This document shows, piece after piece, positions 7,801 to 64,000 of a stretch of DNA of 64,000 bases. Origin of the DNA: Candidatus Parcubacteria bacterium (GTDB taxonomy: Bacteria > Patescibacteriota > Minisyncoccia > Phycocordibacterales > Phycocordibacteraceae). The notes beneath the pieces are model-generated. The model worked only from the letters and a program-made list of their open reading frames with translations, had not been told where the DNA came from and did no database searches. The translations under genes and the position numbers were made by a program. The stretch spans positions 52,260 through 116,259 of the forward strand of contig JAXDML010000010.1 of the NCBI GenBank assembly GCA_034666125.1. The letters run 5' to 3'. How positions within the stretch are numbered: the first letter of the stretch is position 1; every line of letters starts with the position of its first letter.

Positions 7801-10800
7801 CCTTTATCGCGGGTTCCACTACCATCCCGAAGACCTACACGAACAACACATTCGGAGGCACCCAGACCTTCAACAACCTTCTCGCCACGAACGCTACGAC
7901 CACCAGCTTCGGCATCAACTCCGAGACCTTCACCGACCTCACTGGTTCAGGACTCCTCAACGTCGGCGGCACTTTGACGCTGGACCGCACGGGAAACTGG
8001 ACGGGGACGTTCGACGGGCAGGAAGGAACCTACTACCTCGCACGCGCGAATCACACGGGGACCCAACTCGCGTCGACCATTAGTGACTTCAACGATGCGG
8101 TCGCCAACTATGTCAACGCTTCCTCGACTATCCTCAACGACTCCACCGAAGCTGGCCTCGAAGCTTTCCTCACGGACGTCACGAACGTATTCACGAACAA
8201 CGACGGCGCGCTCAACGACGACGATTTGACCAACAATTCGATCGAAGACCTCTCTGATGTCGCGACCATGACCGAGAACTATGGCGATCTCTTGTACTGG
8301 AACGGTACCGCATGGGCAGACATTGCGACGAGTTCCTTGGGACTCCCAACCGCGAGCATCACGAACATCGGCCCTACCGGCCAGATGGCCGACGGTCCGA
8401 ATGTGACGCTTGCGACTTCAACGAGCGCATTCAACGGCCTCACTTCTTCGCTCACCATCACAGGAAGCGGCGATACTCTTACCTTCGTTCCGGCACTCTC
8501 CGGCACCCTCAACAACGCTGGCCTCACTAACTCCACCGTCTCGTACGGCGGCGTGACGCTTTCTCTCGGTGGAAGCGATGCAACTCCGGCCTTCGACCTG
8601 ACCGATGCGACGAACCTTCCGATCGTCGGCGGCACGACCGGTACTCTGACGGTCCCGCGCGGCGGCACGGGCCAGGTTTCGTTCACCGCCAGCAACCTTA
8701 TATATGGAGCAGGTACGGGGGCACTCCAAAGCGTCGCTACTACCACCGTCTCAGCAACCGGGCCCCTCTCCTTCACCGCGAATCCCGTCGTCATCGGCGC
8801 ATCCCCGATCACGCTCTCTCTGGGGACGGTCGATATATCGTCGAATACGAACCTCGCGGCGACGTATCCGATCGTTCTCACCGGGGATACGCTCTCCCTC
8901 GCCTTCGGCACCACCACCTCGAACACCTGGGCGGGTACCCAGACGTTCAACAACCTCGTCGCGACGAACGCCACGACAACATCCCTCGGCCTTAACGGCG
9001 AAACCTTCACCGACCTCACTGGCAGCGGCCTCTTGAACGTCGGTGGCACTTTGACGTTGGACCGCACCGGCGACTGGACGGGGACGTTCGACGGGCAGGA
9101 GGGAAGTTATTACTTAAATCGTGCCAACCATACTGGTACTCAAGCTGCTTCCACGATCAGCGACTTCTCCGAAGCCACCGACGACCGTGTCGCCGTCCTC
9201 ATACAAAACGGTACTGGTATCAGCTGGTCATACAACGATGGCGCGAACACCTTCACGCCGACCGTGACCCTCGCACCGTTCACTACCACGAACCTCGCGG
9301 AAGGCACGAATCTCTACTACACCGATGCACGGGTGAATTCCTTCGTGCACTCTTCGACCACCATCCCGAAAACCTACACTGCGAACACCTTTACGGGAGC
9401 ACAGACGTTTAACGGCGGACTCACCCTCGGAACCTTGAACGGCCCGCTGCAAGCGAACAACGGAATTGTCTCTGCCACAACCAGCATTGGCGTTCTGTAT
9501 GGAGGAACCGGCCTCACTATCGCGCCGACGTACGGACAGCTTTTGGTAGGGAATTCAAGCGGAGGGTACACCCTTACCTCAACCTCTTCACTCGGGCTTA
9601 TCACCCAGGCAGTCCAAAACATCGGCCCGGCAGGGCAGATGGCCGACGGGCCGAACGTCACGTTCGCTACTTCGACTGCGTCCTTTAACGGCCTTACCCA
9701 GGGCATAACCATCACCGGAAGCGGTGACACCATCACGTTCACGCCATCCCTGTCGGGTACTCTCGGTGTCGGCGGGGGAGGCACCGGCGCTGCCTCCTTT
9801 GCGTACGGTCTCGTGCTTTCTCCGGGAGGCACCGGAGCCCTCACCAATATAGCGACTTCCTCCCTCGGCCTCCTCACAACGAACGTCGCCGAAGGAAGCA
9901 ATCTGTACTTCACCGATGAACGCGTCGACGACCGCGTCGCCGTCCTCATACAAAACGGTACGGGCATCTCCTGGAGCTACAACGACGGTGCCAACGCCTT
10001 TACGCCGACCGTGACCTTGGCGCCCTTTACGACGACCAATCTCGCAGAAGGCAGCAATCTGTATTATACGGATGCACGTGTCGCCTCATATATAAACGCC
10101 TCCACCACCATACTCAACGACTCCACAGAAGCTGGTCTTGAAGCCTTCCTCACGGACGTCACGAACGTGTTCACCAACAACGACGGTACCTTAGCCGATG
10201 ACGATCTCACCAACAACAGCATCGAAGACTTGAGTGACGTCGCGGCAATGACCGAGAACTATGGCGATCTCCTCTATTGGAACGGCAGTGCGTGGGCGGA
10301 TATCGCCACTTCCTCGCTCGGACTCCTCTCCACAGCCGTCACTAACATCGGTCCTGCGGGCCAGATGGCGGACGGCCCCACAGTCACCTTCGCCACCACC
10401 ACCTCGACCACCAACGGCATCACCTCGGCGCTCACCATCACGGGTTCGGGAGATACCCTCACCTTTACTCCGTCGCAGTCGGGAACTCTCACTGTTCCTG
10501 GAGGCGGCACGGGAGCCACCTCCTTCACCGCCGGGAACCTCGTCTATGGCACGGGAACCGGCGCACTTCAGAGCGTGGCGACGACGACTCTCTCGGGAAA
10601 TTCCCAGATCGCGCTCTCTCAGCCAGTGGTCGTGATCGGCGCGTCACCTTCTGTCCTCTCTATCACCGCCGACTCCATCGGAGACGCGCAGCTCGCCTTC
10701 AACACCGGGCAGAACCTGACGACCGCGTCGAGCCCGACGTTCGCGAGCCTTACGCTCACGAATCCGCTCGCGGTAACCTCAGGCGGTACCGGGTGGGCGG

Positions 10801-13800
10801 CCATACAGGCAGGTGCGATCCCGTATGGAAACGGTACGGGAGCGCTTGCGACCACGACTGCGGGCACCAACGGAAATATCCTCGCCCTCTTGAACGGCAT
10901 TCCGACCTGGACCTCGACCTCGACATTCCTGCTTGAGACGGAAGTCGATACCGAAGCCGAACTCGAGACGCTCCTCACCGATGTTACGAACGTCTTCACG
11001 AACAACGACGGCGCTCTTGCTGACGACGACCTCACTAATAACTCCATCGAAGACCTCTCGGACGTCGCCGCCATGACCGAGAACTATGGCGACCTGCTCT
11101 ATTGGAACGGAACCGCGTGGGCGGATATCGCCACTAGTTCCCTCGGCCTCGTGACAAGCGCGCTCACCTCGATCGGTCCGGCAGGGCAGCAACAGACCGG
11201 TCCTGCCATCACCCTCGCAAGCTCCACTGCAGGAACGGACTTCACCATCACCGCCGCAGGGAACACAGTGACGTTCAATCTCCCGACCGCTTCGGCTACG
11301 AATCGTGGCTTGCTATCAAGCGCCGATTGGTCGACCTTCAACGGCAAGGAGAACGTGCTTTCCTTCACCTATCCGCTGGTGCGCACGGTTAACAACATCT
11401 CCCTCGCCTTCGGCACGACGACCTCGAACACCTGGGCGGGCACCCAGACGTTCAACAACCTCGTCGCCACGAACGCAACCACGACTTCCTTCGCTATCGG
11501 AAGCGATTACATCACCGACCTCACAGGCTCCGGTCTCACGGTGACCGGAAACGCACTCACCCTCGACCGCACCGGCGACTGGACCGGTACCTTCGACGGC
11601 CAAGAAGGCACGTACTATCTCGCACGCGCCAATCACACCGGGACGCAACTGGCGAGTACGATCAGCGACTTCTCCGAAGCCACCGACGACCGCGTCGCCG
11701 TCCTCATCCAGAACGGCACCGGCATCTCGTGGAGCTACAACGACGGCGCGAACACGTTTACGCCGACCGTGACCCTCGCACCGTTCACCACAACCAACCT
11801 CGCGGAAGGCACGAACCTCTATTACACGGATGCACGGGTGAACAGCTATATCGCGGCCTCCACCACCATCCCGAAGACGTATACCTCTAATACGTTCACC
11901 GGGCTCCAGACCCTGAACGGAGGACTCACGCTCGGCACACTCAACGGCCCGCTCCAAGCGAACGTGGGCGTCGTCTCCGCAACGACCAGCATTGGCGTTC
12001 TGTATGGAGGAACCGGCCTCACTATCGCGCCGACGTACGGACAGCTCCTCGTGGGCAATGCCTCGGGAGGGTATACGCTGACGGCGACGTCGAGCTTGGG
12101 ACTGGCCTCCGCAGCGACCGCCTTCATCCAGAACGGCAACTCGTTCGGCGCGACCGCCGTACTTGGTACCAACGACGCGAACGACCTCCAGTTCGAGACG
12201 AGCGGTACGACGAAACTCACGATCCTCCAGAACGGCAACGTCGGCATCGGCACGACGACTCCGTCGAATCTTTTGCATGTCTTTTCTTCCTCCGCAAGCC
12301 CCCGTATTCGCGCAGAAACTTCACTCACGAGCGGATCGAGCGGATTTACCGCAGCAGGAGAAAGTACCACGGGTTTCGCGTCGTTCAGTTGGAATAATTC
12401 AGGCGCAGCGAATTCGACTTTCTTAACGTTACCGAATGCCGGACTCGTACGGGCAGGTTCAGGAGCATCCGGTGGGCTGGTTCTGGTCAATGAAAATACT
12501 TCCGCGCCCATTATCTTTGCGACGGGAGGAAGTTCCTTCAGCAACGAACGGTTGCGCATCGACAGCGCAGGCAATGTCGGTATCGGCACGACTACGCCGT
12601 TCACGATGCTTTCGGTAAATGGGAACATAGCAGGGAATCATCTCGTCCCGAACGGCGCCTACACGGATAACCTGTCTCCGTACGATCTCGGCGCGATCGG
12701 GAGCCGATGGAATGCGCTCTGGGCCGGAACGCTCAACATCGGCACAAGCACGTGGAGCATCAATAACGGGAGCGATGGAAGGCTCAGTGTGTTCGATGCG
12801 GCATCAGGCGGCGGCACTGAACGATTCTCAATACTTACGAACGGTAACGTCGGCATAGGCTCGACCACGCCATTCGCCAAACTGTCGCTTGCTGGGGGCA
12901 ATTTCTGGCAGACAGCCGGTGATCCGGTGATCGCAAGCAGTACTGACACGACCGCTGCGGTGAACGGAGTCTATGTCGCCGGCAGATATGCCTACCTGAC
13001 GCCGAACTCCGCGAGCCCCGGGCTCGTCATCATGGATGTTTCCAATCCGAGAAGTCCCGCTCAGGTCGGCTCAGCTAACACGACCGGTAACGCTAAGAGG
13101 GTCGTTGTTTCCGGAAGGTACGCCTACGTGCTCTCGGCTCGGCTACACATCTTCGACGTCACGAATCCGGCGAGCCCTTCCGCGGTGGGGAACTACAATC
13201 CCGGTGTCAACATACCGAACGACATATGGGTGTCGGGCAAGTACGCTTACCTCGCACGCAGTAACTTCAGCACGGGCGCCGGTTCCCTGGCCATCGTAGA
13301 CCTTTCGAATCCTGCACTCCCGATAGCGGTCAGTAGTATAAACTCTCCGGACAGCACACGGCCTTTCAATTCCATTTATGTATCGGGCAGATATGCCTAC
13401 GTCGGAACGACGGAAGTATCCGGCACCACGGGCAGGCTCTATATTTATGACATTTCGAATCCGACCGCACCGAGCCTTGTTGGAACCTTCAACGCGACCA
13501 ACCGCGTGACCGGCGTCTATGTTTCGGGCAGATATGCCTACTTATCAGGACTCGGAACGACGTCGGGGCTCGAGATCGTGGACGTTTCAAATCCCGCGTC
13601 CCCAGCGCTTGCCGGTTCCTTCAACACGGCGAATGACGCTATGCGCGTACAGGTGTCGGGCAACTACGCCTACATCGCCGAGGCCGGGACCACGGACGGT
13701 ATCGTCGTGGTCGACGTGTCGCAACCGGGCAGTCCAGTGCAGGTCGGGTCCTACACCACCGCCAATAGCGCCAATAACCTCTACGTGTCAGGCAAGTACA

Positions 13801-16800
13801 TCTACGTCGCGACCAACGGCACTACTGGCGGATTCCAGGTACTTGATGCGGGAGGAGCGCAGCTGCCGCTTGCAAGTATAGGAAATATAAATACCAACCT
13901 GCTTACAGTGGACGAGAACGCGAACTTCGGCGGCGAAATCTATGCGCAAGGCGGCATCAACGCCGGTATCTCCGGCATCTTCTCGCGTGGCACAATCTCC
14001 GCGTACGTCGCATCGTCGACTCAAACCAATCCCACGGTCGCCAACTTCATGGGTGGTTCGGTCGGCATCGGTACGACAACGCCATATGCGGCGCTTTCGG
14101 TGGTCGGGATCAACACCGCCGTGCCGACGCTCTCGATCAAACCGGCGGCGTCGCAAACAGCAAATATTCTCGACCTTTACACGTTCGGCTCACTTACGTC
14201 AGTCATCGATGCGGCGGGTAACTGGGGCATCAGTACCACCTCTCCCTGGAAAACGCTCTCGGTCGGTGGTGATTTTTCGCTCACTGGCGCGTTCTTTGAT
14301 AGTGGAGCATCCTCGGGGACGAACGGCATGGTGCTCCAGACCACCGGGTCGGGCACGCAATGGGTCGCCACTTCGTCGCTCGGCATCAGCGCCGGCCTCA
14401 CGGGCTCCGGCTGCTGCGGTCAGGTCGCGTATTGGAACGGTGCGAGTTCCCTTACCGGTGACGCGGCCTTCACGTTCGACGGCACGAACCTCTCGCTCGG
14501 TACCGGCCAGTACCTGGTCACCGATTCGGAAGGCGCTCCCGGCTACTCCTGGACGGGGGACACGACGACCGGCATATATCACGCGGGTGCCAGCACGATC
14601 GGCTTCTCGACCGGCGGGATCGAACGGATGCGCATAGACGGGAACGGCTATCTCGGCATATCGACGACATCGCCGGGACAGATGCTATCGGTGGAAGGAG
14701 ACGCATACATAAGCGGCGCCACGGTGATCGGGGATACCGGGCTTCCGCTCGTCGGTCCAGCGCTTACCGTGAACGGCTTTACGGGCATCGCTTCCTCATC
14801 GCCCTGGGGCCTGCTCTCGGTGAATCCGAACGCAATCGGTACCGCTCCCTCCTTCGTCGTCGGTTCCTCGAGCGCAACGAACTTCATTGTCGCGAACGGC
14901 GGCAGCGTGGGGATCGGTATGACGGCACCCTCATCGCGGTTCCAGGTGGCCGATATCAATAGGTTGTCGGGCACGTCGGTAAGTTCGGCCGGTTTTGGAA
15001 ACACGAATCTCTCGGTCTACACGACTGATGCAGCAGCTACCAACGTGGGAGCCGTCATTGGGCTCGGAGGAGCGAACCTATACGGCGGTCTGAAGGGCGC
15101 AAGTCAGAGCGGCACTTCAGCCGGATACCTTGGCTTCTATACGAATTCCTTCAGTATCATCACTGGGAACACGTTCGCAGAGCGAGCCCGTATAACGTCT
15201 AGCGGCCAGCTTGGCATCGGAACGACCACGCCGTTCGGCCTGCTGGCGGTCGCCGGGCCTATCGCTGGCAATCATATCATCCCGAATGGTCCATATACCG
15301 ATAATCTTTCTGCGTACGACCTTGGCGCAACCGGAAGCCGCTGGAACGCGCTGTGGGCCGGTACGGTCAATATCGGCACGAGTACCTGGAGCATCAATAA
15401 TGGCAGCGATGGACGACTATCGTTCTTCGACGCCGCATCGGGCGGCGGGAACGAGCGCCTCTCCCTGCTTACGAACGGGAATGTCGGCATCGGTACGACT
15501 AGTCCTGCGGCCCGTCTCGCCATTACAAGCAATGCAGCCATTACAAGCGATAGCATCGATACGTACTTAGCAAACACCGTGAATGCTGGAACTGTGTCGG
15601 GTACGGATCGACTTATTACTGGCAACTATACTACGCTTTCCCCTACAGTTACGCTTGAAGGCGCTACCCTAAGCGCTATCGCAAATAAAACACTAGTTAA
15701 TGCTGGAAACGTTACTCTTGGCAGTACCGCGCTCTCTGGTGTTTCAGGAAGTCTCATTGGAGACTCTATAGAAGTTACCGGGAGCCCCATATTTAACGAC
15801 CCGGATGGTAACGACGAGCTGAATGCCACGTTTATCGGAACCCAATCTTATGTCAACCTTGTACCCTCGGTTACCAGTGTCTCAGGCGGTAACCTAGCTT
15901 CGTATGGAGGATTGTTCACTAACTCTTCTTCCAACAGTAGCGGCAACCTTGGTGCCGGCGCGTACGGAGTTTCAGCGTTAGTAGGTGGCAACCCTCTTGT
16001 TAATGGATATCGTTACGGTTTTTATTCCACAGTTTCAGGTACATCTAACGAAAACACGGGTTACTGGGGAGCCGTTAGTGGAGGCACGGGTTCAAACTAC
16101 GGCTCAACTCTTATTGTCAGCGGTGGAGCCGTCAGTAATTACGGAAACTACGTGGGCATAAGCGGAGGTAATAACAATTACGGGTCGTATATATCCCTAC
16201 AAGCTAGTTCTACCAACTATGCGATTTATGCGACAGGTGGCGCGCAAAGCTATTTTTCTGGGAACGTCGGTATTGGTACCACCACTCCGTGGGCAACACT
16301 TGCGGTAAATCCAGTCGCTGGGGGAGCATCGAACGCTTTCGCCATCGGCTCTTCAACAGCTACGAGGTTCTTGGTGACTAACGGTGGAAATGTCGGTATC
16401 GGCACTACCACCCCAGGCACCCTCCTCTCGCTTGGAGACACCGGTGCGAACACAATCAATATTTCGGCTACGGCGACCTCGACATTCGGCAGCGGTATCA
16501 ACATCCGGACGGGCTGCTTTGCGGTGAACGGAGTGTGCGTCGGCGGAGGCGGAGGCGGGACGATAAACTCTGGAACGACCGGCCAGTTCCCGTACTACGC
16601 CGCGAACGGCACGACGCTCACGGCGACCTCGACGCTGCTCGTATCTACGGCATCGAACGTCGGTATCGGTACCACTACTCCTTCCGCACGACTCGCCATC
16701 ACGGGTACCGGTACGGGTACCGGACGAGCCTTCGCCATCGCGAACTCGTCCGACGCTGAACGGCTTTCGGTTCTCGATAACGGCAGTACCGCCATCATAA

Positions 16801-52640: not shown

Positions 52641-53729
52641 ATGAGGAAACTCGTCAACGCTCTGCTGACGCCGCTGGTGGCGTTCGCTCTGATCATCACT
52701 TCGTTCATCGCCCCGACGGCCAGTCTGGCCCAGTCGTACCGTTCGCTCGACGCCTATCCGGCGATCTGCCGTTCGGTGATGACCGAGCAGCGCATGCACG
52801 GTACCGCCATGTATCGCGGTGCCGACAACCCCGCTCAGCTTGCCGAGGTCATCCAGGCTTCCCTGGATGACGACGAGACGGGCATGACCCGCGTCCGCGC
52901 AAAGCCGGGCGATCAGGCGTTCGCGCGCCCGATCGACTGGTTCTGCACGCTCAAAGCGGTCGACTCGCGGGCGGCCAACCTCAATTCGGTCGCCGACCTG
53001 CCGGCCTATATGCGCACGCTCGTTGCGGCCAACCCGCCGCAGGGCCGCGTGTGGTCGGCATGCATCACGCAGGCGGGGGTTCTCCTCCACTGCATGCTGC
53101 GTCATTACGAACCCAACGAGAAAGTCTGGGTCAATCCCCAGACCGCTGTGGGCGTGATGCAGGGCAACTGCGCGAACACCATCGAAGGGCCCGAAGTCCC
53201 GAACGTCTGCTACGTCTTCGAGCACAATTACTACCAGCAGCGCGACGTGCGGTGGTTCGAAAGGGGCAATACGACCTACGCCCTGGTCTCGACCCACATG
53301 TCCCTCACGGAGCAGCAGATGCGCCGCGTTTACGCGGACGATTGCTACTTCGTCGAGGACGAGACCGGCCGATACAAGCCCCGGCCGGACTGCCCGTTCC
53401 TGTTCTGCCCGCCCGGCAGCACGTGGCCGAACCTCGCGCTTGCGCGGGCGGTCGGGCTGCCGGCCAGCCCGCCGGACACCACGATCCATTATTGGCTGGC
53501 GAACGGAAGAGGCCGCCTGTCGGTCCCGCTGTGGGCGGCGCGCATTCTCGCGCAAGACAATGGGGAGGTTATCCCCTGCGTCTACACCGTCGACTATTTC
53601 GTTTCGGTGGCGGGTTTCGAGCGTTGGAGAGCGTTCGCGCGCTTCGACCGGGCTCGGGGGCCTCAAATTCGGCCGACGCTCCGCGCCGGTCGCTACAGCG
53701 AGGTTTTCCAAGGGCGCGTCAGCTACTAG
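52641..53729 (+). CDS. Secreted Cys/Trp/Tyr-rich protein of unknown function
   Basis: Signal peptide 'LLTPLVAFALIITSFIAPTASLAQS'; 12 Cys; no family recognised. Confidence 0.55.
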   Translation: MRKLVNALLTPLVAFALIITSFIAPTASLAQSYRSLDAYPAICRSVMTEQRMHGTAMYRGADNPAQLAEVIQASLDDDETGMTRVRAKPGDQAFARPIDWFCTLKAVDSRAANLNSVADLPAYMRTLVAANPPQGRVWSACITQAGVLLHCMLRHYEPNEKVWVNPQTAVGVMQGNCANTIEGPEVPNVCYVFEHNYYQQRDVRWFERGNTTYALVSTHMSLTEQQMRRVYADDCYFVEDETGRYKPRPDCPFLFCPPGSTWPNLALARAVGLPASPPDTTIHYWLANGRGRLSVPLWAARILAQDNGEVIPCVYTVDYFVSVAGFERWRAFARFDRARGPQIRPTLRAGRYSEVFQGRVSY

Positions 53730-53859
53730 GTCGCGGTTCTGGCAACGGGGAGGGGGTGGCGGGTCTTCGGATCCGCCACCACCACCTCTTTTTGTACGCC
53801 GCGGAAGCGGCAGAGGAATTCATTATCACAAGATTATCCGAAGCGTTACTTCAAAAAAT

Positions 53860-55611
53860 ATGACCATCGTAAATGACTCAATCGCATACGCAAAGACTCG
53901 CCCGATCGCTGTCGGCGTGTTCACCATTGTCGCCGTACTTGCGGTAGGCTTCGGTATCGGGATGGTGGGCGGCGTAGTGAACGTCGGGAAGGCCGACGCG
54001 TGTTGCGTGCTTCCTCCGACTCCGCCACCCCCACCCCCTCCTCCGCCACCCCCGCCACCCCCACCCCCTCCTCCGCCAATCCCGACTCCGCCGCTACCCC
54101 CGACCCCGCCTGAGGAGGATGAGGGCCGCTGTATCTCTCTTTCCGCTTCCCGTTCCGTTATCACGGCACCCGGTCAGGCAGTCGTCCTTACCTGGTCCAC
54201 CGAAGACGTCGATTCGATCAGCATCAATAACGGCGTCGGCACCGTTTCGCCTACCTCGGGAGGCTCGGTCACCGTGTACCCGACCGGAGATACGACCTAT
54301 GTCGCGACCGTAGAAGGCGGCGACCAGAACGATAACTGCCGTGCAAGCGTACGCCTTGAGACGGTGGTCATCACTGATGAACCTCGCTGCGTCGACCTGT
54401 CGATCAGCAAGAGCCGCATCGAGGAAGGGGAGTCGGTCATTCTTTCCTGGGCGACCCGGAACGCGAGCTCCATCAGCATCAATAACGGCGTCGGTTCCGT
54501 GACTCCGGTATCGAGCGGCTCCGTTACGGTCCGTCCCACCCGCGATACCACGTACGTCGCCACCGTACCCGGCGCACCGTACAACCCGGACTGCGAAGTG
54601 ACCGTCCGTATCGACGAGGATGAGGACGAACCGCGCGAACGCGACCATGATCGCGATGATCATGACCGCGAACGTGAGCGTCCCGAAGTCTTCATCGGTT
54701 CGGAGGAACGCCCGAACGAGCCACCGCTCGCGAGCGTCTACCTCTCCGAGATCCCGTATACCGGCCTTGACCTCGGTCCCGCAGGCACCGTCGTGTACTG
54801 GACCATGCTCGTTCTCTGGAGCGGTGCCGCAGCGTACCTGGTCCTCTTCAACTTCCTGCCGTACCTCTTCCGCCGCGCAGCCACCGACGCCCTCGCCGAG
54901 TCCGGTCATCTGCCCGGATGGGGCCCTGCAGCATCCGCCGCACCTGCCGCGGCACCGATCGCGCGCTCCGCGCCTTCGGCACCCGCACCGGCCGTGCACC
55001 AGGCAGCGCATCGCGCAGCCGTCGTGACCGCGCTCCCGCAGCGCTCCGTGGCGGCAGCACCGGCCCCTGCATCGTCCCGCGTGTACTCGCCCCATGAAGG
55101 ATTCCGCTCCTTCGCCTCGAGCGGCTCGCTCACCATCGACGACATCGTGAAGGGCCTGTCCCGCGAGTCGGGCATGGAACTCGAGATCGCGCCCGTAGCG
55201 CCGAGCGCGCCTGTAGAGGCCATCGCTCCCGTAGCAAAAGCCGCTCCTGCGCCCGCGCGTGCCGTAAAGAACGCGACCGAGTACGCTGACGATATCCCCG
55301 GCTTCATCGAGGCGCTCATCAGCGGCGACCGCGACCATGTCTTCGGGACCGTCCGGAATGTCACGAAGCAGGGCGGCAACTCCGAGGAATTCCTCTCCGA
55401 AGCCGTCTGCGCGCTCGACGACGCGTACCGTGCCCGCACCGAAGGCGCCGACGTGCATCCCGAGATCGCCCGCGTGACGAAAGAGTGCCATACGTCCTTC
55501 CTCGAGAAGCTCGTAGCCTCGCTCGCGACCGCGCTCGACTCGAGCTACTCGGCAGGCATGACCGGCACGAAGCTCGCGCTCACCCGCGCGCTCGCCGTAG
55601 TCAACGGATAA
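53860..55611 (+). CDS. Bitopic/dual-TM surface protein: N-terminal TM, poly-Pro stalk, two Ig-like repeat domains (same type as in 33423..35720), acidic stretch, 'IPYTG' plus TM plus RR segment, Ala/Pro-rich region and C-terminal cytoplasmic domain
   Basis: In-frame ATG 53860 (MTIVNDS) inside the longer artefactual ORF 53440..55611. 'LTWSTEDVDSISINNGVGTVSPTSGGSVTVYPTGDTTYVATV' x2. Confidence 0.55.
   Translation: MTIVNDSIAYAKTRPIAVGVFTIVAVLAVGFGIGMVGGVVNVGKADACCVLPPTPPPPPPPPPPPPPPPPPPPIPTPPLPPTPPEEDEGRCISLSASRSVITAPGQAVVLTWSTEDVDSISINNGVGTVSPTSGGSVTVYPTGDTTYVATVEGGDQNDNCRASVRLETVVITDEPRCVDLSISKSRIEEGESVILSWATRNASSISINNGVGSVTPVSSGSVTVRPTRDTTYVATVPGAPYNPDCEVTVRIDEDEDEPRERDHDRDDHDRERERPEVFIGSEERPNEPPLASVYLSEIPYTGLDLGPAGTVVYWTMLVLWSGAAAYLVLFNFLPYLFRRAATDALAESGHLPGWGPAASAAPAAAPIARSAPSAPAPAVHQAAHRAAVVTALPQRSVAAAPAPASSRVYSPHEGFRSFASSGSLTIDDIVKGLSRESGMELEIAPVAPSAPVEAIAPVAKAAPAPARAVKNATEYADDIPGFIEALISGDRDHVFGTVRNVTKQGGNSEEFLSEAVCALDDAYRARTEGADVHPEIARVTKECHTSFLEKLVASLATALDSSYSAGMTGTKLALTRALAVVNG
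54010..54115 (+). repeat. Poly-Pro-coding CCN tract containing a direct duplication of about 30 bp (ccacccccaccccctcctccgcca x2)
   Basis: Read directly. Confidence 0.7.
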
Positions 55612-60500: not shown

Positions 60501-60762
60501 GCGAGTACTTCGCGTCGTGAACCGGATCCTTGTCGAAGCGGGACCGCGGCGCCATATGCAGATCGACTCCGAGTATGGGCTTGATCCCGCGCTTCTCTGC
60601 CGCCTTATAGAACTCGATGGCGCCGTGCATGTTCCCGGTGTCGGTGAGCCCGACGGCGTCCATGCCCTGCGCCACGGCGGCATCCACCAGCTCGTCCACC
60701 TTCGGCAGAGCCTCGAGGAAGCTGTAGTGGCTGTGGGTGTGGAGGTGGACGAAGCGCGACAT
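57574..60762 (-). CDS. dnaE: DNA polymerase III alpha subunit
   Basis: PHP 'FVHLHTHSHYSFLEALPKVDELV'; polymerase core and C-terminal OB region; 1062 aa. Confidence 0.9.
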   Translation of the reverse strand: MSRFVHLHTHSHYSFLEALPKVDELVDAAVAQGMDAVGLTDTGNMHGAIEFYKAAEKRGIKPILGVDLHMAPRSRFDKDPVHDAKYSRIVLLAENIAGYKNLLALVSKAHIEGFFERPRIDRELLREHKGGLIAIMPSFAGDVAKLLAAGDADGAAAALAEYMVIMGPDNLFLEITHHPKVPGHMDRMERIIEIGTRAKVPLLAQHDVYYVKPDDREATEVMRRIRYGSTSTGGNEDEDFSFVGVEDIDRWFGHVPGAVGASGDIAARCNVTFELGRWTFPNVPLGKGFKTHGDELRAKTYAGLETRNMEKTPEVEERIEYELNIIEGKGFARYFLVVSDLLNHAKEEGILTTTRGSAAGSIVSYLTGITNVDPIEYKLPFERFLNPERPKAPDIDMDMADNRRDDMIRYVKQKYGDENVAQIGTFGTLMARAAVRDVSRALGHSYGVGDRIAKLIPIGSQGFPMTIDKALEIEPDLKALYDEDEDAREVLQLARRIEGCVRHVGVHAAGVVISPTPLIEWTPLQPDPKGTGKLITQYDMYSITDEYGGVGLLKFDFLGIKNLSILSDAVARVKETLGTDIDIENVPLDDARTFAMLARGETEGTFQLNGSGMTRYLKELKPTTIHDINAMVALYRPGPMETIPAYIERKHNPALVNFIDDRMKEYLDTSYGLLVYQDDVLLTAITLGGYSWLEADTLRKAMGKKIPAEMAAQKEKLMEGFKEHGGLPPAKSEKIWKLIEPFAAYGFNKAHAACYGKVAYQTSYMKANYPVEYMAAVLTADSGDTDAIANFSAECERLRIPLLPPDVNESGTDFTVVPMEGNKAGAIRFGLSSIKNFGEGVSHAILDERVKNGPYATLSEFLSRVAAKSLNRKSLESLTKCGALDRFGDRTYLLDNIEMQLAFHRDATQAAAQESLFGAMAMAPTLHLPAASGQETSAADKLAWEKELLGIYVSGHPLDVHEETRMKATATIGGILAEPRPGFPVILPALITEVKTYLTKSGEKMAFVTFEDKTGSIEAVIFPKLYKEQARAVVSGTCVLIKGAVSIRNGETTLALENLKAL

Positions 60763-60802
60763 GGGTACAGGATACCAAATTGAGAACTGCTATAGTTTTC
60801 GG

Positions 60803-61402
60803 ATGAGATTCGTACTCGGCGTGGACGAGGCGGGACGGGGCCCGTTGGCCGGGCCGGTCGCCGTGGGGACGGTATGCGTGCGTAAGGATTTCGATATCCC
60901 TACGGCCTTCCCGGGACTCAACGATTCGAAGCAACTGACGGAGAAGAAACGGGAGAAGCTCTTCGAGCTCCTGCTTGAACGCGTCGTCGCAGACGACGCG
61001 TCATACCACGTCGAGCTCGTAGGCCACGACGTCATCGATAAGCGCGGCATCGTGCACGCCGTACGGCGTGGCGTCGAGAAGGGGATACGGAAGCTCCTGC
61101 CGGAACCCGCAGAGGGCAAGATATGGCTCGATGGCGCGCTCCGCGCGCCCGACACATACGAACAGGAAACCGTCATCAGGGGAGACTCCCTCATCCCGGC
61201 CATCATGCTCGCTTCGGTCGCCGCGAAGGTCACGCGCGACCGCTACATGACGCGGCTGGCGGAGCGCTACCCGCTCTACGGCTTCGAGCGCCACAAAGGC
61301 TACGGCACCTCAGCGCATTACGACGCGCTCCGCGCACACGGACTCTGCGACCTCCATCGCCGCAGTTTCATCCATCTGGCCGAGCCCGCCGTTGTCCGAT
61401 AA
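60803..61402 (+). CDS. rnhB: Ribonuclease HII
   Basis: 'LGVDEAGRGPLAGPVAVGTV' catalytic DEAGRG motif. Start ATG 60803 (MRFVLGVDE) within the ORF open from 60737. Confidence 0.85.
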   Translation: MRFVLGVDEAGRGPLAGPVAVGTVCVRKDFDIPTAFPGLNDSKQLTEKKREKLFELLLERVVADDASYHVELVGHDVIDKRGIVHAVRRGVEKGIRKLLPEPAEGKIWLDGALRAPDTYEQETVIRGDSLIPAIMLASVAAKVTRDRYMTRLAERYPLYGFERHKGYGTSAHYDALRAHGLCDLHRRSFIHLAEPAVVR

Positions 61403-61448
61403 GAAGCCGAATTTCCTTTTTATACGGCCCTGTGCTACGGTGGGACGC

Positions 61449-61820
61449 ATGTCAGTACGAATGCGCCACACCAGTTCCCATACCAAGAACCGCAGGAGCC
61501 ACCATGCCCTGAAGGCTACGAACCTCGTGAAGGACAAGGAGAGCGAAGCTCTCCGCCTTCCGCATCGCCTGGACGAATCCACGGGCATGTACCGCGGCAA
61601 GCAGATCGTCCCGACCGACGAGCTGAAGCGCCGCGAGGAGCGCATGAAGAAGCGCCGGAGCGCGAAGGAGAACCCTTTGACCGAAGGCGTCCGCGAGCCG
61701 GTGCACGCCACCGAAGACCCGATCGCCGCGCCGAAGGCGCCGAGCAAGGAAGGCCTTCTCGGCCGTTTCACCAAGGGCCGCGCGAAGGCGCGCTCCGGTT
61801 TCGGCGGGAACGCCGGATAG
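61449..61820 (+). CDS. rpmF: Ribosomal protein L32 with about 65-aa basic/acidic C-terminal extension
   Basis: 'MSVRMRHTSSHTKNRRSHHALK...ESTGMYRGKQIV' aligns with the E. coli L32 motifs RRSHDAL and GYYRGRKV. Confidence 0.75.
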   Translation: MSVRMRHTSSHTKNRRSHHALKATNLVKDKESEALRLPHRLDESTGMYRGKQIVPTDELKRREERMKKRRSAKENPLTEGVREPVHATEDPIAAPKAPSKEGLLGRFTKGRAKARSGFGGNAG

Positions 61821-61940
61821 TGGCTATACGCATACGTTCGAGCGAAGCGCGGCCGTACGGCCGCGCTTCGCTATGCACATACGGGTGCAGTTGCGCCTTT
61901 GCGCTTAATCCTGGTACTCTATGCGCACAGCTCTTTCCAT

Positions 61941-62849
61941 ATGGCCAACCGCCACCTTGCACGTTCCGTAGTCCTTCAGACGCTCTTCGAGTGGGATACG
62001 ACGCATGCCGATGAGGCGGGGGTGAACGAGATCCTCGCCCGGAACGTCGAAGAGTTCGGCGGCGATGATTCGGACCGGCCATTCACGGAAGCTCTCCTTT
62101 CGGGCGTCATCAGCAAGCGCCCGGACCTCGACCTCGTCATCACGAAGGCCGCGCCCGACTGGCCGCTCGAGAAGATCGCGCCCGTGGATCGTAATATTCT
62201 AAGGATCGGGCTTTTTGAATTGCTTTTCGCCGACCGCGCGCAAGTGCCTGCGAAGGTCGCCATCAACGAAGCCATCGAGCTTGCGAAGGTGTTCGGCGGC
62301 GATTCGTCGGGACGCTTCGTCAACGGAGTCCTCGGCGCCGTGTACAAGGAGATGGGCGAGCCCGGCAAGGACGAGAAGGGGAAGAAGGACCGCGTGCGCC
62401 GCGAGGACCTGCCGCTCGAGAAATTGGGAGGCGCCATCGTGTACGCCGAGCACGAGGGCCAGTACTATCTCGCGCTCGTGCACGATGTCTTCGGCCGGTG
62501 GACGCTGTCCAAGGGCCATATCGAAGAGGACCCGAGCCCGGAGGAGGGAGTGAAGCGCGTGGTGATGGAGGAGCTCGGGATCGCGTCAACGGTCGAGGAG
62601 ATGGTCGGCGAGAACGAGTACGTCGCCTCGCACCCGGAAAAAGGGAAGATCCGGAAGCACGTCTGGTTCTTCCTCGTGCATGCGGAGTTCGAGACGCTGA
62701 CCCTGAAGAAAAGCGGTGGGCTCGACGACGCCAAGTGGTTCCGCCTCACCGACATCCTCGACCTCAATTTCTATGACGACATGCTCCCCATCGTGACCGC
62801 CGCAGTGCAGAAGCTCCTCGACAAGGCCCGCGCGAAGTCCGTGGCATGA
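61941..62849 (+). CDS. nusB: NusB antitermination factor fused to a C-terminal NUDIX hydrolase domain
   Basis: NusB: 'ARSVVLQTLFEWD', 'PAKVAINEAIELAKVFGGDSSGRFVNGVLG'. NUDIX-like box 'GHIEEDPSPEEGVKRVVMEELGI'. Start chosen at ATG 61941 (MANRHLAR); the ORF is open from 61899. Confidence 0.7.
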   Translation: MANRHLARSVVLQTLFEWDTTHADEAGVNEILARNVEEFGGDDSDRPFTEALLSGVISKRPDLDLVITKAAPDWPLEKIAPVDRNILRIGLFELLFADRAQVPAKVAINEAIELAKVFGGDSSGRFVNGVLGAVYKEMGEPGKDEKGKKDRVRREDLPLEKLGGAIVYAEHEGQYYLALVHDVFGRWTLSKGHIEEDPSPEEGVKRVVMEELGIASTVEEMVGENEYVASHPEKGKIRKHVWFFLVHAEFETLTLKKSGGLDDAKWFRLTDILDLNFYDDMLPIVTAAVQKLLDKARAKSVA

Positions 62850-62882
62850 TTTTGAATTAGGGCGGATTCGAGTTCCGTTGAC

Positions 62883-62958
62883 CGCGCCTTCACACAAAGC
62901 CGTCTCTGGACGGCTTTGTGACGATAAAAAGAAGACAGGACGCGTGACGACGTCCTGT
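62883..62958. terminator. Two hairpins (cacaaagccgtc/gacggctttgtg and caggacg/cgtcctg) flanking a T/A run between convergent nusB-NUDIX and the minus gene
   Basis: Read directly. On the minus strand the second hairpin is followed by tcttcttttta. Confidence 0.45.
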
Positions 62959-64000
62959 CAGAGTTCGGAAGCAAGCTCAGGATAAGCGCTCCTGAGTAAC
63001 TCCCGAAGCGAGAGCCCAACGTTCTTGCTGGAGAGCATTCCAGCTAGCCCATATTTTCTGAATAGTGAAGGGGTAACTAAAGGAGAAAGAGGCGATATCT
63101 CCAGATGTTCATCAAGCAGCCACATGGTAGCTAATGCGGCCGTCACCCTTCCCTCGCTGCCCACCCACTTACCTTGGGTGCAGAAGCTCCACGGAAGAAA
63201 CTTATCAGGATAGACAAGGCGCAGGATAGGTTCAGGAGACCCATACGCCTTTATAATTGCCTCAAGACCGTGCTCACTAAAAGCCCGTCTTGTCAGGGTG
63301 GTTTCTAGCCGTCTGTCCCAAATCTCTCCCGCAGTGAGGGTTAACATCGGTATTCCGAGCTTTTCCTCAACAAGCCACCGAGTTGCCCTGATCACATTCT
63401 CTTTCAAGTCGAAATAACCCTTAGGCGTTTTTGCAAACTCCCATGGGTGATATCGATTCGGAAATGCTTGATTCAGATACGCAAATCTATCCCGTCCGAA
63501 CAGTGAAGTCAGGGGACTGAATAAACCTGCGTTCTCAAAGAAACTCCTAGTAAGCAATTTCGGATACTCTTCAGGAGGGCGGCCGGTTTCCCTCAATGCG
63601 TTCTGCAAGGACTCAACCGCTCGCTCCAGATTCCAGTAGTTTCGTGGGGCACGCACCATGTGATGGCCAAGAAATCTCTTTTCCGGGAATGCGAATTTGA
63701 TGGCGTCAAACGGTGAGCTGTGGAAGAAAACCTGGAGCCACCCCCCAAGCCCGTGTTCTTTGAACGTCACTTGTCCGATTTTCCGGGGAGCCTCGTCCGG
63801 GGTTATACCAAGGACTTTAACTAATACGAAAACCACCAGCCTATGGCTTTCTGGGGTCCTGTGCCTGTACGCATTCTCCTTGGCTTGTCTCAGAACTGCT
63901 TGCGGATCGATTTGTTCTCGATCTCCCGCAAGCAAAACGTAGAGCTGATTTTGCTCAAGCCAGGAGGGAATCTCTTCGGGAGTCACGTCCCAAAGCACTT
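62958..64000 (-). CDS. Hypothetical protein (lower-GC gene; N-terminus may extend beyond the window)
   Basis: ORF 346 aa running to the window edge; no family recognised. Confidence 0.5.
   Translation of the reverse strand, partial: VLWDVTPEEIPSWLEQNQLYVLLAGDREQIDPQAVLRQAKENAYRHRTPESHRLVVFVLVKVLGITPDEAPRKIGQVTFKEHGLGGWLQVFFHSSPFDAIKFAFPEKRFLGHHMVRAPRNYWNLERAVESLQNALRETGRPPEEYPKLLTRSFFENAGLFSPLTSLFGRDRFAYLNQAFPNRYHPWEFAKTPKGYFDLKENVIRATRWLVEEKLGIPMLTLTAGEIWDRRLETTLTRRAFSEHGLEAIIKAYGSPEPILRLVYPDKFLPWSFCTQGKWVGSEGRVTAALATMWLLDEHLEISPLSPLVTPSLFRKYGLAGMLSSKNVGLSLRELLRSAYPELASEL

What the first reader, a model, noticed from the sequence alone, without database searches (positions are those of the whole stretch)
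61941..62849. NusB fused to a NUDIX hydrolase domain
The N-terminal 140 residues align convincingly with NusB (PAKVAINEAIELAKVFGG...FVNGVL). The C-terminal 150 residues contain a degenerate Nudix box (GHIEEDPSPEEGVKRVVMEELGI). A transcription antitermination factor covalently linked to a nucleotide-diphosphate hydrolase is not a standard architecture. It could link (p)ppGpp, NAD-cap or Ap4A turnover to antitermination.
Basis: partly seen in the sequence, partly recalled or inferred. Interest (0 to 1): 0.5.

Follow-up and report, generated by a model that had tools for sequence, protein, structure and literature searches.

The report
NusB fused to decayed Nudix domain
This gene encodes the transcription factor NusB joined to a Nudix enzyme-like domain that has lost key catalytic residues; the fusion is real, is inherited across a large group of ultra-small bacteria (Parcubacteria), and has not been studied.

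Summary
Window 61941-62849 (+) is one uninterrupted 302-aa ORF with a full NusB domain (Pfam E=2.7e-34; TIGR01951 above its cut-off) and a C-terminal Nudix-fold domain (Pfam E=2.6e-11). The AlphaFold2 model has pLDDT 89.7. Its closest solved relatives are Ap4A/Ap6A hydrolases.

It is not an assembly artefact. The same roughly 300-aa architecture occurs in at least 291 species-level genomes of Kaiser-, Campbell-, Zambryski- and Taylorbacteria and other Parcubacteria. It always sits in the cluster rnhB-rpmF-nusB::nudix-rnc(RNase III)-smc.

In this genome's clade two of the four Nudix-box glutamates are replaced in 121 of 121 sequences (E7 to P/A/S, E16 to V/I). The residues that stack adenine and hold phosphates in Ap4A hydrolases are invariant, and the domain is as conserved as NusB itself. 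More distant fusions often keep a canonical box, so catalysis was probably ancestral and lost repeatedly.

Best reading: a genuine BoxA/S10-binding NusB carrying a tethered, catalytically impaired nucleotide-binding module.

New here: a BoxA-like motif (G[ACT]TCTTT) lies 9-12 nt upstream of the start codon in most of the 68 of 79 related genomes that carry it. This suggests NusB autoregulation.

Databases call the protein just "NusB", and I found no paper on the fusion.

The parts
61941..62849 (+). nusB::nudix ORF, 302 aa plus TGA stop
   Evidence: Single ORF. Both Pfam domains lie on one polypeptide. The 120 closest homologues have the same length and architecture.
61941..62360 (+). NusB domain (residues 1-140, seven helices)
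   Evidence: PF01029 E=2.7e-34 and TIGR01951 at 124.8 bits, above its cut-off. The AF2 model has 7 helices. Foldseek gives TM 0.89-0.90 and rmsd 1.8 A to Aquifex NusB 3r2c/3r2d. F126 (E. coli F122, stacks on BoxA U8) is kept in 60/60 sequences, D83 (Aquifex E81) in 58/60, and F16/Y (E. coli Y18, NusE contact) in 57/60.
62361..62411 (+). Charged K/R/E-rich linker (residues 141-157)
   Evidence: pLDDT is below 50 at residues 142-150, and pTM is only 0.62 despite a mean pLDDT of 89.7, which suggests a flexible tether. Median identity to the query is 82% in close relatives and 24% in distant fusions.
62412..62846 (+). Nudix-fold domain of the ApnA-hydrolase type (residues 158-302)
   Evidence: PF00293 E=2.6e-11. 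Foldseek gives target-normalised TM 0.82-0.85 to the Aquifex Ap4A hydrolase 3i7u and Thermus Ndx1 1vc8. phmmer's best PDB hits are CT771, Ndx1 and the Aquifex Ap4A hydrolase. Y227, Y278, K191 and K239 align with human Ap4A hydrolase Y82, F128, K42 and approximately K89.
62514..62582 (+). Degenerate Nudix box GHIEEDPSPEEGVKRVVMEELGI (residues 192-214). P198 replaces the box-7 Glu and V207 replaces the box-16 Glu.
   Evidence: Read directly from the sequence against the consensus GX5EX7REUXEEXGU (quoted in PMC2425470). The changes are fixed in the clade: box 16 is V/I in 121/121 sequences, and box 7 is P/A/S in 119/121 and never E.
61929..61938 (+). BoxA-like leader motif aGCTCTTTcc, ending 3 nt before the ATG, where a Shine-Dalgarno sequence would sit
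   Evidence: G[ACT]TCTTT occurs within 30 nt upstream of the start in 68 of 79 related genome loci, against 0.66 expected from the loci's own background. In 64 of the 68 it starts 9-12 nt upstream of the ATG. It precedes no other credible gene start in the window or in about 0.9 Mb of related loci. It matches the first 7 nt of the gamma-proteobacterial BoxA consensus GYTCTTTAANA (PMC5725501).
61891..61920 (+). Promoter-like elements: TTGCGC (61891-61896), an 18-nt spacer, then TGgTACTCT (61912-61920)
   Evidence: Read from the sequence. TTGCGC and a TGnTA(T/C)(A/T)CT-type element recur at the same place in related loci. The consensus scanner found no promoter by its stricter rule, so this is an inference only.
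61841..61872 (.). Perfect 32-nt GC-rich palindrome (14-bp stem, GTAC loop) between the rpmF stop and the nusB promoter-like region
   Evidence: Read from the sequence. Comparable GC-rich palindromes occupy this spacer in many related loci. There is no T-run, so a terminator role is unproven.
60737..61820 (+). Conserved upstream neighbours rnhB (60737-61402) and rpmF/L32 (61392-61820)
   Evidence: Pfam RNase_HII E=2.1e-33 and Ribosomal_L32p E=1.2e-11. The same order is found in nearly all 80 loci and in distant lineages.

Best explanation
This is the organism's NusB, the BoxA-RNA- and S10(NusE)-binding subunit of the ribosomal-RNA transcription antitermination complex. It carries a C-terminal domain that descends from an Ap4A/ApnA-hydrolase-type Nudix enzyme. 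The fusion probably arose once, early in the Parcubacteria (Paceibacteria), and has been inherited vertically in a fixed operon context: own promoter, then nusB::nudix, then rnc (RNase III), then smc. In this genome's clade (Kaiserbacteria-like) the Nudix domain has lost two of the four signature glutamates, yet it keeps the adenine-stacking tyrosines and phosphate-binding lysines and is under purifying selection as strong as on NusB. It therefore most likely acts as a poorly catalytic or non-catalytic nucleotide-binding module. The probable ligand is an adenine polyphosphate such as ApnA or ATP, or an A-initiated RNA 5' end. The domain is held by a flexible ~20-residue linker next to NusB helix alpha7, the BoxA-binding helix. 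From there it could modulate or stabilise NusB:S10:BoxA assembly during rRNA transcription and RNase III processing. Expression is probably autoregulated through a BoxA-like element that makes up most of the short mRNA leader. Shown: the architecture, the fold, conservation, synteny, the residue pattern and the leader motif. Inferred: ligand binding without turnover, the position in the complex, and autoregulation.
For: Domains and fold. The NusB residues needed for BoxA U8 and NusE contacts are invariant or nearly so across 60 diverse fusions. Distribution: the 120 closest proteins all have both domains. At least 291 species-level genomes encode a relative, and the 80 best loci that were kept all match at full length. 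Named lineages include Kaiser-, Campbell-, Zambryski- and Taylorbacteria. Orthologous locus: rnhB-rpmF upstream in most lineages, and rnc 1-14 nt downstream or overlapping in four divergent lineages (up to ~120 nt in two others). Selection: the fusion has median 79% identity against 70% for DnaE, 57% for RNase HII and 51% for L32 in the same genomes, and is higher than DnaE in 57/57 loci. Within the clade the Nudix domain, at 84%, is as conserved as the NusB domain, at 85%. Catalytic decay: box 16 is V/I in 121/121 clade members. Only 7 of 41 fusion cluster representatives keep all three catalytic glutamates, against 25 of 32 standalone relatives (Fisher p=2.4e-7). Pocket retention: W187, K191, Y227, K239, W266 and Y278 are kept in at least 88% of all fusions, and at least 90% if K239R is counted. 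Y227 and Y278 align with the adenine-stacking Tyr82 and Phe128 of human Ap4A hydrolase. Precedents for non-hydrolytic Nudix domains that bind nucleotides: CF Im25 binds Ap4A with Kd 2.4 uM, shows no hydrolysis, and lacks two box glutamates (PMC2425470); the NrtR Nudix domain with ADP-ribose is the third-best structural hit. Leader motif. Precedent for BoxA-mediated translational autorepression of Nus-factor genes: PMC5725501.
Against: No biochemical data exist for any member. R206, E210 and E211 remain, and conserved acidic residues E195 and D197 lie nearby, so residual or altered catalysis cannot be excluded. In a larger, non-dereplicated sample of other lineages 79 of 159 fusions keep all three glutamates. 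For much of the family the domain may therefore be an active enzyme, and the family-wide function may involve hydrolysis. The conserved aromatic and lysine residues are also conserved in standalone relatives and could be partly structural. No coordinates or PAE were available, so pocket geometry and domain contacts were not examined. The BoxA assignment rests on similarity to the gamma-proteobacterial consensus over 7 of its 11 positions. The lineage's own rRNA-leader BoxA was not obtained, and 29 of the 68 motifs have A at the Y position. The motif is absent in AT-rich distant lineages. Whether the genome has a second, plain NusB could be checked only within the 64-kb window, where none was found.
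Confidence: 0.55

Rival explanations
1. The Nudix domain is an active hydrolase delivered to the nascent rRNA leader by NusB. It could be an RppH-like 5'-pyrophosphohydrolase, an Np4A/ApnA decapping enzyme, or a local Ap4A hydrolase. It would couple 5'-end processing or alarmone removal to antitermination and RNase III processing.
For: The closest relatives are active Ap4A/Ap6A hydrolases. Many fusions in other lineages keep a canonical R-E-x-x-E-E box: 79 of 159, for example P0131 with GGVEKGERLEEALVREIKEEIGL. That makes an active ancestral fusion likely. RsmB shows that a NusB-like domain can target an enzyme to rRNA (one search hits). rnc lies immediately downstream.
Against: In this genome and all 120 closest relatives the box-16 Glu is V/I and the box-7 Glu is P/A/S. 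Box 16 corresponds to E58, which is mutated in the human Ap4A hydrolase E58A crystal entry. Loss of box glutamates abolishes metal binding and hydrolysis in CF Im25. Repeated independent loss of the glutamates, with the domain retained, argues that catalysis is not what selection maintains.
Confidence: 0.2
2. The Nudix fold serves purely as a protein-protein or assembly module and needs no ligand. It would be a cis-acting counterpart of SuhB, the inositol monophosphatase required for stable integration of NusB/E into the E. coli rRNA antitermination complex.
For: SuhB is an enzyme-fold protein that stabilises NusB/E in the complex and binds RNA next to BoxA (PMC6614801). The fused Nudix domains are acidic (query net charge -8, pI 5.2; fusions average -4 against -0.7 for standalone relatives, p=0.007), which fits a protein-binding surface better than an RNA-binding one. 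The catalytic motif is dispensable in many lineages.
Against: The residues that contact adenine and phosphate in Ap4A hydrolases stay nearly invariant while the catalytic glutamates decay, which is easier to explain if a nucleotide is still bound. No partner was identified. Presence or absence of SuhB in these genomes was not tested.
Confidence: 0.15
3. The fusion is a functionally neutral joining of two housekeeping genes in a streamlined genome, with no mechanistic coupling. Alternatively, the Nudix domain is a CF Im25-like RNA-binding domain.
For: CPR genomes are compact, and domain fusions can arise by loss of a stop codon. CF Im25 shows that a Nudix fold can bind RNA.
Against: The fusion persists across lineages that share only 28-55% identity in the Nudix domain, at one orthologous locus. 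The domain is retained and strongly conserved after losing catalytic residues, which a housekeeping hydrolase role would not explain. The nearest standalone relative examined sits in an unrelated, phage-like context rather than next to nusB. The acidic charge argues against a large RNA-binding surface.
Confidence: 0.07
4. Assembly or annotation artefact: two adjacent genes merged by a frameshift or a lost stop codon in this assembly.
For: None beyond the unusual architecture. Reads were not available.
Against: The reading frame is continuous. The same 290-310 aa two-domain protein occurs in hundreds of independent assemblies from NCBI, JGI, ENA and Logan. The linker is conserved in close relatives.
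Confidence: 0.01

Closest known systems
NusB (E. coli, Aquifex aeolicus, Thermotoga; PF01029/TIGR01951)
   Same: Seven-helix fold (TM 0.89-0.90), a score above the equivalog cut-off, and conserved BoxA-U8 and NusE contact residues.
   Different: Canonical NusB is a ~140-aa single-domain protein. This one carries a ~145-aa Nudix-fold domain on a flexible linker, and it is followed by rnc rather than the usual neighbours.
Asymmetric Ap4A/ApnA Nudix hydrolases (Aquifex aq_158 3i7u, Thermus Ndx1 1vc8, Chlamydia CT771 4ilq, human NUDT2)
   Same: Best sequence and fold matches. Shares the W-T-x-x-K-G-H motif, a Tyr shortly after the box, and a second aromatic residue that sandwiches adenine.
   Different: The box-7 and box-16 glutamates are replaced (P198, V207). 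The domain is fused to NusB and strongly acidic. Activity is untested.
Nudix-related transcriptional regulators (NrtR; Bacteroides AraR)
   Same: A degenerate, non-catalytic Nudix domain acts as an effector-binding module fused to a nucleic-acid-binding domain. The NrtR Nudix domain with ADP-ribose is the third-best structural hit, and AraR is a weak sequence hit.
   Different: Those proteins use a winged-helix DNA-binding domain and act as repressors at promoters. Here the partner is an RNA-binding elongation factor placed N-terminal to the Nudix domain.
CF Im25 / NUDT21
   Same: A Nudix-fold protein in RNA-processing machinery that lacks two of the four box glutamates and binds Ap4A and ATP without hydrolysing them (PMC2425470).
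   Different: It is eukaryotic, a dimer, binds UGUA RNA, and lacks different glutamates (second and fourth rather than first and second). No close sequence relationship.
RsmB/Sun 16S rRNA methyltransferase
   Same: A NusB-like N-terminal domain is covalently joined to an enzyme domain that acts on rRNA. The RsmB models hit residues 7-150.
   Different: The enzyme domain is a SAM methyltransferase. The query's NusB domain scores as true NusB, not as the RsmB N-domain.
[quoted passage not shown]
   Same: SuhB is an enzyme-fold accessory that stabilises NusB/E on the complex. A BoxA element close to the start codon of a Nus-factor gene gives translational autorepression.
   Different: SuhB is a separate inositol-monophosphatase-fold protein. 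The leader motif here matches only the 5' seven nucleotides of the gamma-proteobacterial consensus and is untested.

Membership tests
NusB (TIGR01951 / PF01029) | Profile score above the curated cut-off | tested here: met
   TIGR01951 scores 124.8 bits against 88.35. PF01029 scores 118.9 against 23.1.
NusB (TIGR01951 / PF01029) | All-helical seven-helix NusB fold | tested here: met
   The AF2 model has 7 helices over residues 2-138. Foldseek gives TM 0.89-0.90 and rmsd 1.8 A to 3r2c/3r2d.
NusB (TIGR01951 / PF01029) | Residues that form the BoxA U8 pocket and the NusE interface (E. coli/Aquifex F122, Aquifex E81, E. coli Y18) | tested here: met
   F126 is kept in 60/60 sequences, D83 in 58/60 (acidic in 59/60), and F16/Y in 57/60.
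NusB (TIGR01951 / PF01029) | Binds S10 and BoxA RNA and supports antitermination | not testable with these tools
   Needs biochemistry or genetic complementation.
Nudix hydrolase superfamily (PF00293) | Alpha/beta/alpha Nudix fold and a profile score above the cut-off | tested here: met
   PF00293 scores 44.1 bits against 21.1. TM is 0.82-0.85 to 3i7u and 1vc8.
Nudix hydrolase superfamily (PF00293) | Complete Nudix box GX5EX7REUXEEXGU with all four glutamates | tested here: not met
   The box reads GHIEEDPSPEEGVKRVVMEELGI. Position 7 is P and position 16 is V, while R15, E19, E20, G22 and I23 are kept. The changes are fixed in 121/121 clade members.
Nudix hydrolase superfamily (PF00293) | Mg2+/Mn2+-dependent hydrolysis of a nucleoside diphosphate-X substrate | not testable with these tools
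   An enzyme assay is required.
Asymmetric Ap4A/ApnA hydrolase subfamily | Aromatic residue (Tyr/Phe) a few residues after the box, plus a second aromatic, stacking on adenine; phosphate-binding Lys in the PKG motif | tested here: met
   Y227, Y278 and K191 align with human Y82, F128 and K42. They are at least 90% conserved across the fusions. This rests on alignment only, not on model coordinates.
Asymmetric Ap4A/ApnA hydrolase subfamily | Catalytic box glutamate (human E58, Thermus Ndx1 E46) | tested here: not met
   The aligned residue is V207.
NrtR-type Nudix-related transcriptional regulators | Degenerate Nudix effector domain fused to a C-terminal winged-helix DNA-binding domain | tested here: not met
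   The Nudix domain is degenerate and resembles the NrtR Nudix domain in structure. However, the partner domain is an N-terminal NusB, with no wHTH. This is an analogy of mechanism, not membership.
BoxA element (NusB/NusE RNA site) | Match to a BoxA consensus in the transcribed leader of a gene, conserved across species | tested here: inconclusive
   G[ACT]TCTTT is found in 68 of 79 loci against 0.66 expected, and is specific to nusB. It equals the 5' 7 nt of GYTCTTTAANA, but the 3' half differs. The lineage's rRNA BoxA was not available, and binding is untested.

The most novel reading that the evidence does not exclude
NusB::Nudix is a nucleotide-gated antitermination factor. A pseudo-hydrolase domain derived from an Ap4A hydrolase senses ApnA or ATP, or grips the A-initiated 5' end of the nascent pre-rRNA. 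Through its tether to the BoxA-binding helix it controls assembly of the NusB:S10:BoxA module. This would couple rRNA transcription and RNase III processing to nucleotide status in Parcubacteria, with the protein repressing its own translation through a BoxA in its ~15-nt leader. It would be the first ligand-sensing Nus factor, and a cis-encoded functional analogue of SuhB.
Probability: 0.15. Interest if true: 0.75.

Novelty: new variant of a known kind. Interest (0 to 1): 0.5.

Why it matters
NusB is a core, intensively studied transcription factor that is normally a bare 140-residue RNA-binding protein. Here an entire major lineage of ultra-small, uncultured bacteria has replaced it with a two-domain version. 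The added domain is an enzyme fold that keeps its nucleotide pocket while repeatedly losing its catalytic residues, and it is more conserved than the replicative polymerase in the same genomes. That pattern points to an unrecognised regulatory or structural input into ribosomal RNA synthesis in organisms with minimal regulatory repertoires. It also gives a directly testable case of a Nudix pseudo-enzyme acting in transcription elongation. The conserved pairing with RNase III and the BoxA-like leader provide independent handles for experiments. Public databases currently label the protein simply 'NusB', so the extra domain is invisible to users.

Tried and rejected
(1) Second NusB or related Nudix gene in the window: a six-frame hmmsearch with family HMMs found only this ORF. 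The rest of the genome could not be checked.

(2) Origin from adjacent split genes: the closest standalone Nudix examined (P0153) lies in an integrase/methylase, phage-like context, not next to nusB.

(3) CF Im25-like RNA binding by the Nudix domain: disfavoured, because the domain is acidic.

(4) The leader motif as a general translation signal: rejected. It precedes no other credible gene start in the window or in about 0.9 Mb of related loci. Other genes instead show TATACT-like boxes very close to their start codons.

(6) afdb50 fold search for UniProt entries with the same architecture: the library was unavailable.

(7) Literature: the term pairs NusB+Nudix, NusB+Patescibacteria and NusB+Parcubacteria returned no paper on the fusion.

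(8) The consensus promoter scan found no sigma-70 site near the gene. The promoter-like elements I list are weaker matches supported only by recurrence in related loci.

(9) Extra domains in longer family members (P0222 at 577 aa, P0149 at 358 aa): only sub-threshold CSD and Rho_N hits, so I did not pursue them.

(10) An early estimate that most fusions are pseudo-enzymes (7 of 41 cluster representatives intact) was tempered by a larger sample in which 79 of 159 non-clade sequences are intact.
Full report
OBSERVATION. Window 61941-62849 (+) is one open reading frame of 302 codons plus a TGA stop, with no internal stop. Pfam places NusB at residues 7-136 (E=2.7e-34) and NUDIX at residues 174-281 (E=2.6e-11) on the same polypeptide. 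The NCBIfam nusB equivalog TIGR01951 scores 124.8 bits, above its 88.35 cut-off. The ATG at 61941 is the true start: homologues are invariant from MANRHLARS onward.

FOLD. An AlphaFold2 model was built on a 60-sequence alignment of diverse family members (A1). It has a mean pLDDT of 89.7. There are seven helices over residues 2-138, a disordered stretch at 142-150, and then a beta-rich alpha/beta/alpha domain with the Nudix helix at 200-212 and a long C-terminal helix. The pTM is only 0.62 despite confident domains, which I read as a flexible tether; no PAE or coordinates were available. Foldseek against the PDB matches the C-terminal domain best to the Aquifex Ap4A hydrolase 3i7u (target-normalised TM 0.82-0.85) and Thermus Ap6A hydrolase Ndx1 (0.85). 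Next come the NrtR Nudix domain, mycobacterial MutT1/Rv2985, Chlamydia CT771 and the C. elegans and human Ap4A hydrolases. The N-terminal domain matches Aquifex NusB in its NusE/BoxA complexes (TM 0.89-0.90, rmsd 1.8 A). Sequence searches of the PDB give the same relatives.

NOT AN ARTEFACT, AND WIDELY INHERITED.
- The 120 closest proteins in a 5.8-billion-protein collection are all 296-347 aa, carry both Pfam domains, and come from independent NCBI, JGI, ENA and Logan assemblies. Sources name them simply 'NusB'.
- In a one-genome-per-species collection, at least 291 species encode a relative. The 80 best loci that were kept all match at full length.
- Searching with the Nudix domain alone against 1.84 billion 50%-identity representatives gave only 831 hits. 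About 41-45 of the top 150 are full-length NusB+Nudix fusions, at 28-55% identity in the Nudix domain.
- A search from one of the most divergent fusions recovered members named Campbellbacteria, Zambryskibacteria, Taylorbacteria, Parcubacteria, Paceibacterota and Minisyncoccia.

SYNTENY. In the window and in most related lineages the order is thrS(-), dnaE(-), then rnhB(+), rpmF(+), nusB::nudix(+); the Campbellbacteria locus has different upstream genes. RNase III (rnc) lies directly downstream in 78 of the 80 species loci and in all six divergent lineages examined. The gap is 1-14 nt, or an overlap, in four of those lineages and about 110-125 nt in the other two. smc usually follows. This fits a single ancient fusion at one orthologous locus.

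STRENGTH OF SELECTION. Across the 80 species loci, median identity to the window protein is 79% for the fusion, 70% for DnaE, 57% for RNase HII and 51% for L32. The fusion is more conserved than DnaE in 57 of 57 genomes. One caveat: the loci were ranked by similarity to this protein. Within the clade the NusB domain, the linker and the Nudix domain are equally conserved (85%, 82% and 84% median identity). Among distant fusions the figures are 47%, 24% and 37%.

THE NUDIX BOX. [quoted passage not shown] The query reads G-HIEED-P-SPEEGVK-R-V-V-M-E-E-L-G-I. The first glutamate (position 7) is Pro and the second (position 16, the Glu of 'RE') is Val.
- In all 121 clade sequences, position 16 is V or I. 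Position 7 is P, A or S in 119 and is never Glu.
- Position 16 corresponds to E58 of human Ap4A hydrolase and E46 of Thermus Ndx1 (alignments). PDB entry 4ijx is the human E58A mutant, and 1vc9 is the Ndx1 E50Q (position 20) mutant with Mg-ATP.
- Among 41 fusion cluster representatives, only 7 keep all three of positions 16, 19 and 20. Among 32 standalone ~140-aa relatives, 25 do (Fisher p=2.4e-7).
- This must not be overstated. In a larger, non-dereplicated sample of other lineages, 79 of 159 fusions keep all three. Some have a textbook box, such as P0131 with GGVEKGERLEEALVREIKEEIGL.
- On a rough neighbour-joining tree the trait changes about 28 times among 169 taxa. That number is inflated by tree error, but the trait is clearly scattered.
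- The simplest history is an active ancestral enzyme domain, with catalytic residues lost repeatedly and the domain always retained.

THE POCKET IS KEPT. [quoted passage not shown] Lys42, Tyr82 and Lys89 line the phosphate site, and Glu130 contacts the adenine amino group (PMC4734340; the downstream aromatic is also noted in PMC2425470). By alignment these are K191, Y227, approximately K239, Y278 and D280 in the query.
- Across 41 fusion representatives, W187 is kept in 41/41, K191 in 40/41, Y278 in 39/41, W266 in 39/41, Y227 in 37/41 (plus 3 Phe), and K239 in 30/41 (plus 7 Arg).
- In the 280-sequence set these positions are 88-100% conserved, and all are at least 97% if Arg is counted at K239.
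- Catalytic residues decay while ligand-contact residues do not. This is the pattern seen in Nudix-fold proteins that bind but do not hydrolyse. CF Im25 binds Ap4A with Kd 2.4 uM and ATP with Kd 1.5 mM, shows no hydrolysis, and has lost two box glutamates. NrtR binds ADP-ribose (3gz8).
- The fused domains are acidic: the query has net charge -8 and pI 5.2, and fusions average -4 against -0.7 for standalone relatives (p=0.007). This argues against a large RNA-binding surface.

THE NUSB HALF IS FUNCTIONAL-LOOKING. In the Aquifex NusB-NusE-BoxA structure, F122 stacks on BoxA U8 and E81 reads its base. E. coli F122D is defective, and Y18D disrupts NusE binding (PMC3177189). The equivalents are F126 (60 of 60 diverse fusions), D83 (58 of 60) and F16/Y (57 of 60). 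F126 lies in helix alpha7, the last helix before the linker, so the Nudix domain is tethered beside the BoxA/NusE site. That placement is an inference from topology.

Immediately upstream of the ATG the window reads ...TGgTACTCTatgcgcacAGCTCTTTCCat-ATG.
- G[ACT]TCTTT occurs within 30 nt upstream of the start in 68 of 79 related genomes. The expectation from the loci's own frequency of 0.35 per kb per strand is 0.66. In 64 of the 68 the motif starts 9-12 nt upstream of the ATG.
- Of 15 occurrences in the 64-kb window, the only one immediately upstream of a credible gene start is this one.
- Of 99 occurrences in about 0.9 Mb of related loci that precede an ORF of at least 100 codons, 67 are nusB. 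The rest are scattered singletons.
- The motif equals the first seven bases of the gamma-proteobacterial BoxA consensus GYTCTTTAANA. This is the part that includes the U8 nucleotide recognised by NusB/NusE. However, 29 of the 68 have A at the Y position, and the 3' half differs.
- A divergent lineage (L083) has GTTCTTT abutting the ATG. AT-rich lineages (L086, L087) lack the motif.
- BoxA elements near the start codons of the Nus-factor genes suhB, nusE and (via ribH) nusB give translational autorepression in gamma-proteobacteria (PMC5725501).
- With a -10-like element about 9 nt upstream, the leader would be only about 15 nt long and consist largely of this motif. NusB:S10 binding there would occlude initiation.
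- This is a conserved, gene-specific element with a plausible reading. It is not a demonstrated BoxA, because the lineage's rRNA leader could not be obtained.

MECHANISM. I conclude that this is the lineage's working NusB. Its appended Nudix domain in this clade most likely binds an adenine polyphosphate ligand or RNA 5' end without efficient hydrolysis, and it modulates or stabilises the NusB:S10:BoxA module during rRNA transcription. The gene is co-expressed with RNase III, which processes the same transcripts (confidence about 0.55). The rivals are:
- an active, NusB-targeted hydrolase, which is plausible for canonical-box lineages and less so here (0.2);
- a ligand-independent assembly module analogous to SuhB, which in E. 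coli is required to integrate NusB/E into the complex (PMC6614801) (0.15);
- a neutral fusion or an RNA-binding domain (0.07);
- an artefact (0.01).

COMPARISON AND NOVELTY. The protein is a member of the NusB family: every testable feature is met. It belongs to the Nudix fold superfamily of the ApnA-hydrolase type, but it fails the defining catalytic-motif test. It therefore should not be called a Nudix hydrolase without an assay. It works most like the NrtR and CF Im25 class of Nudix pseudo-enzymes, and architecturally it parallels RsmB (a NusB-like domain plus an enzyme domain). Three literature searches found no description of a NusB-Nudix fusion, and databases name it only 'NusB'. I rate it a new variant of a known kind. 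It is of moderate interest for transcription and CPR biology, and it comes with clear experiments.

Noticed in passing
window 1839-18953 (+): A giant ORF of 5704 aa. The N-terminal 2800 aa have no Pfam hit. The C-terminal half has six LVIVD repeats (E=4e-51), a beta-propeller match and a Peptidase_S74 'chaperone of endosialidase' domain, as found in phage tailspikes.
   Followed up: partly
window 62850-64000: In 78 of 80 related genomes rnc (RNase III) follows nusB::nudix directly. In this window it does not. Instead there is a convergent 346-aa ORF (62958-63998, -) with no Pfam hit, in a lower-GC stretch (0.56 against about 0.61), with hairpins at 62893-62920 and 62934-62959. This looks like an insertion between nusB::nudix and rnc. 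A few relatives (L005, L008, L010, L011, L014) also have rnc displaced.
   Followed up: partly
window 61392-61820 (+): Ribosomal protein L32 (rpmF) carries a ~70-residue K/R/E-rich C-terminal extension beyond the ~50-aa L32 domain (Pfam match at residues 25-73 of 142). Related genomes have either the long form or a ~76-aa form.
   Followed up: no
window, upstream of many genes (e.g. starts at 21427, 31029, 48714, 57419(-), 60762(-)): Many genes have a TATACT/GGTATC-type -10-like box only about 7-15 nt before the start codon and no Shine-Dalgarno sequence. This suggests leaderless or near-leaderless mRNAs are common in this genome.
   Followed up: no
window 61841-61872: A perfect 32-nt GC-rich palindrome (AGCGAAGCGCGGCC-GTAC-GGCCGCGCTTCGCT) lies 21 nt after the rpmF stop, with no T-run. 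Similar GC-rich palindromes occupy the same spacer in many related loci, often followed by TGTTGTTTGC that runs into the -10-like box.
   Followed up: partly
window 53440-55611 (+): A 723-aa ORF with high GC3 and no Pfam match, lying between a sortase/CARDB pair and thrS.
   Followed up: no
loci L004, L006, L011, L012, L017 and others (record titles): Several contigs that carry a protein 85-90% identical to this Kaiserbacteria-type protein, with the same synteny, are labelled 'uncultured Candidatus Saccharibacteria' or 'Bacillota' in their records. These labels are probably generic or mis-binned taxonomy.
   Followed up: no
P0222 (577 aa) and P0149 (358 aa), family members from other metagenomes: Some fusions carry further extensions. 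P0222 has a ~315-aa N-terminal region with a sub-threshold cold-shock-domain hit. P0149 has a C-terminal tail with a sub-threshold Rho_N-like hit.
   Followed up: partly
L085 6001-6453: The closest standalone relative of the fused Nudix domain that was examined (P0153, canonical box) sits among integrase, DNA methylase and replication-protein-O-like genes, i.e. in a phage-like or mobile context.
   Followed up: no
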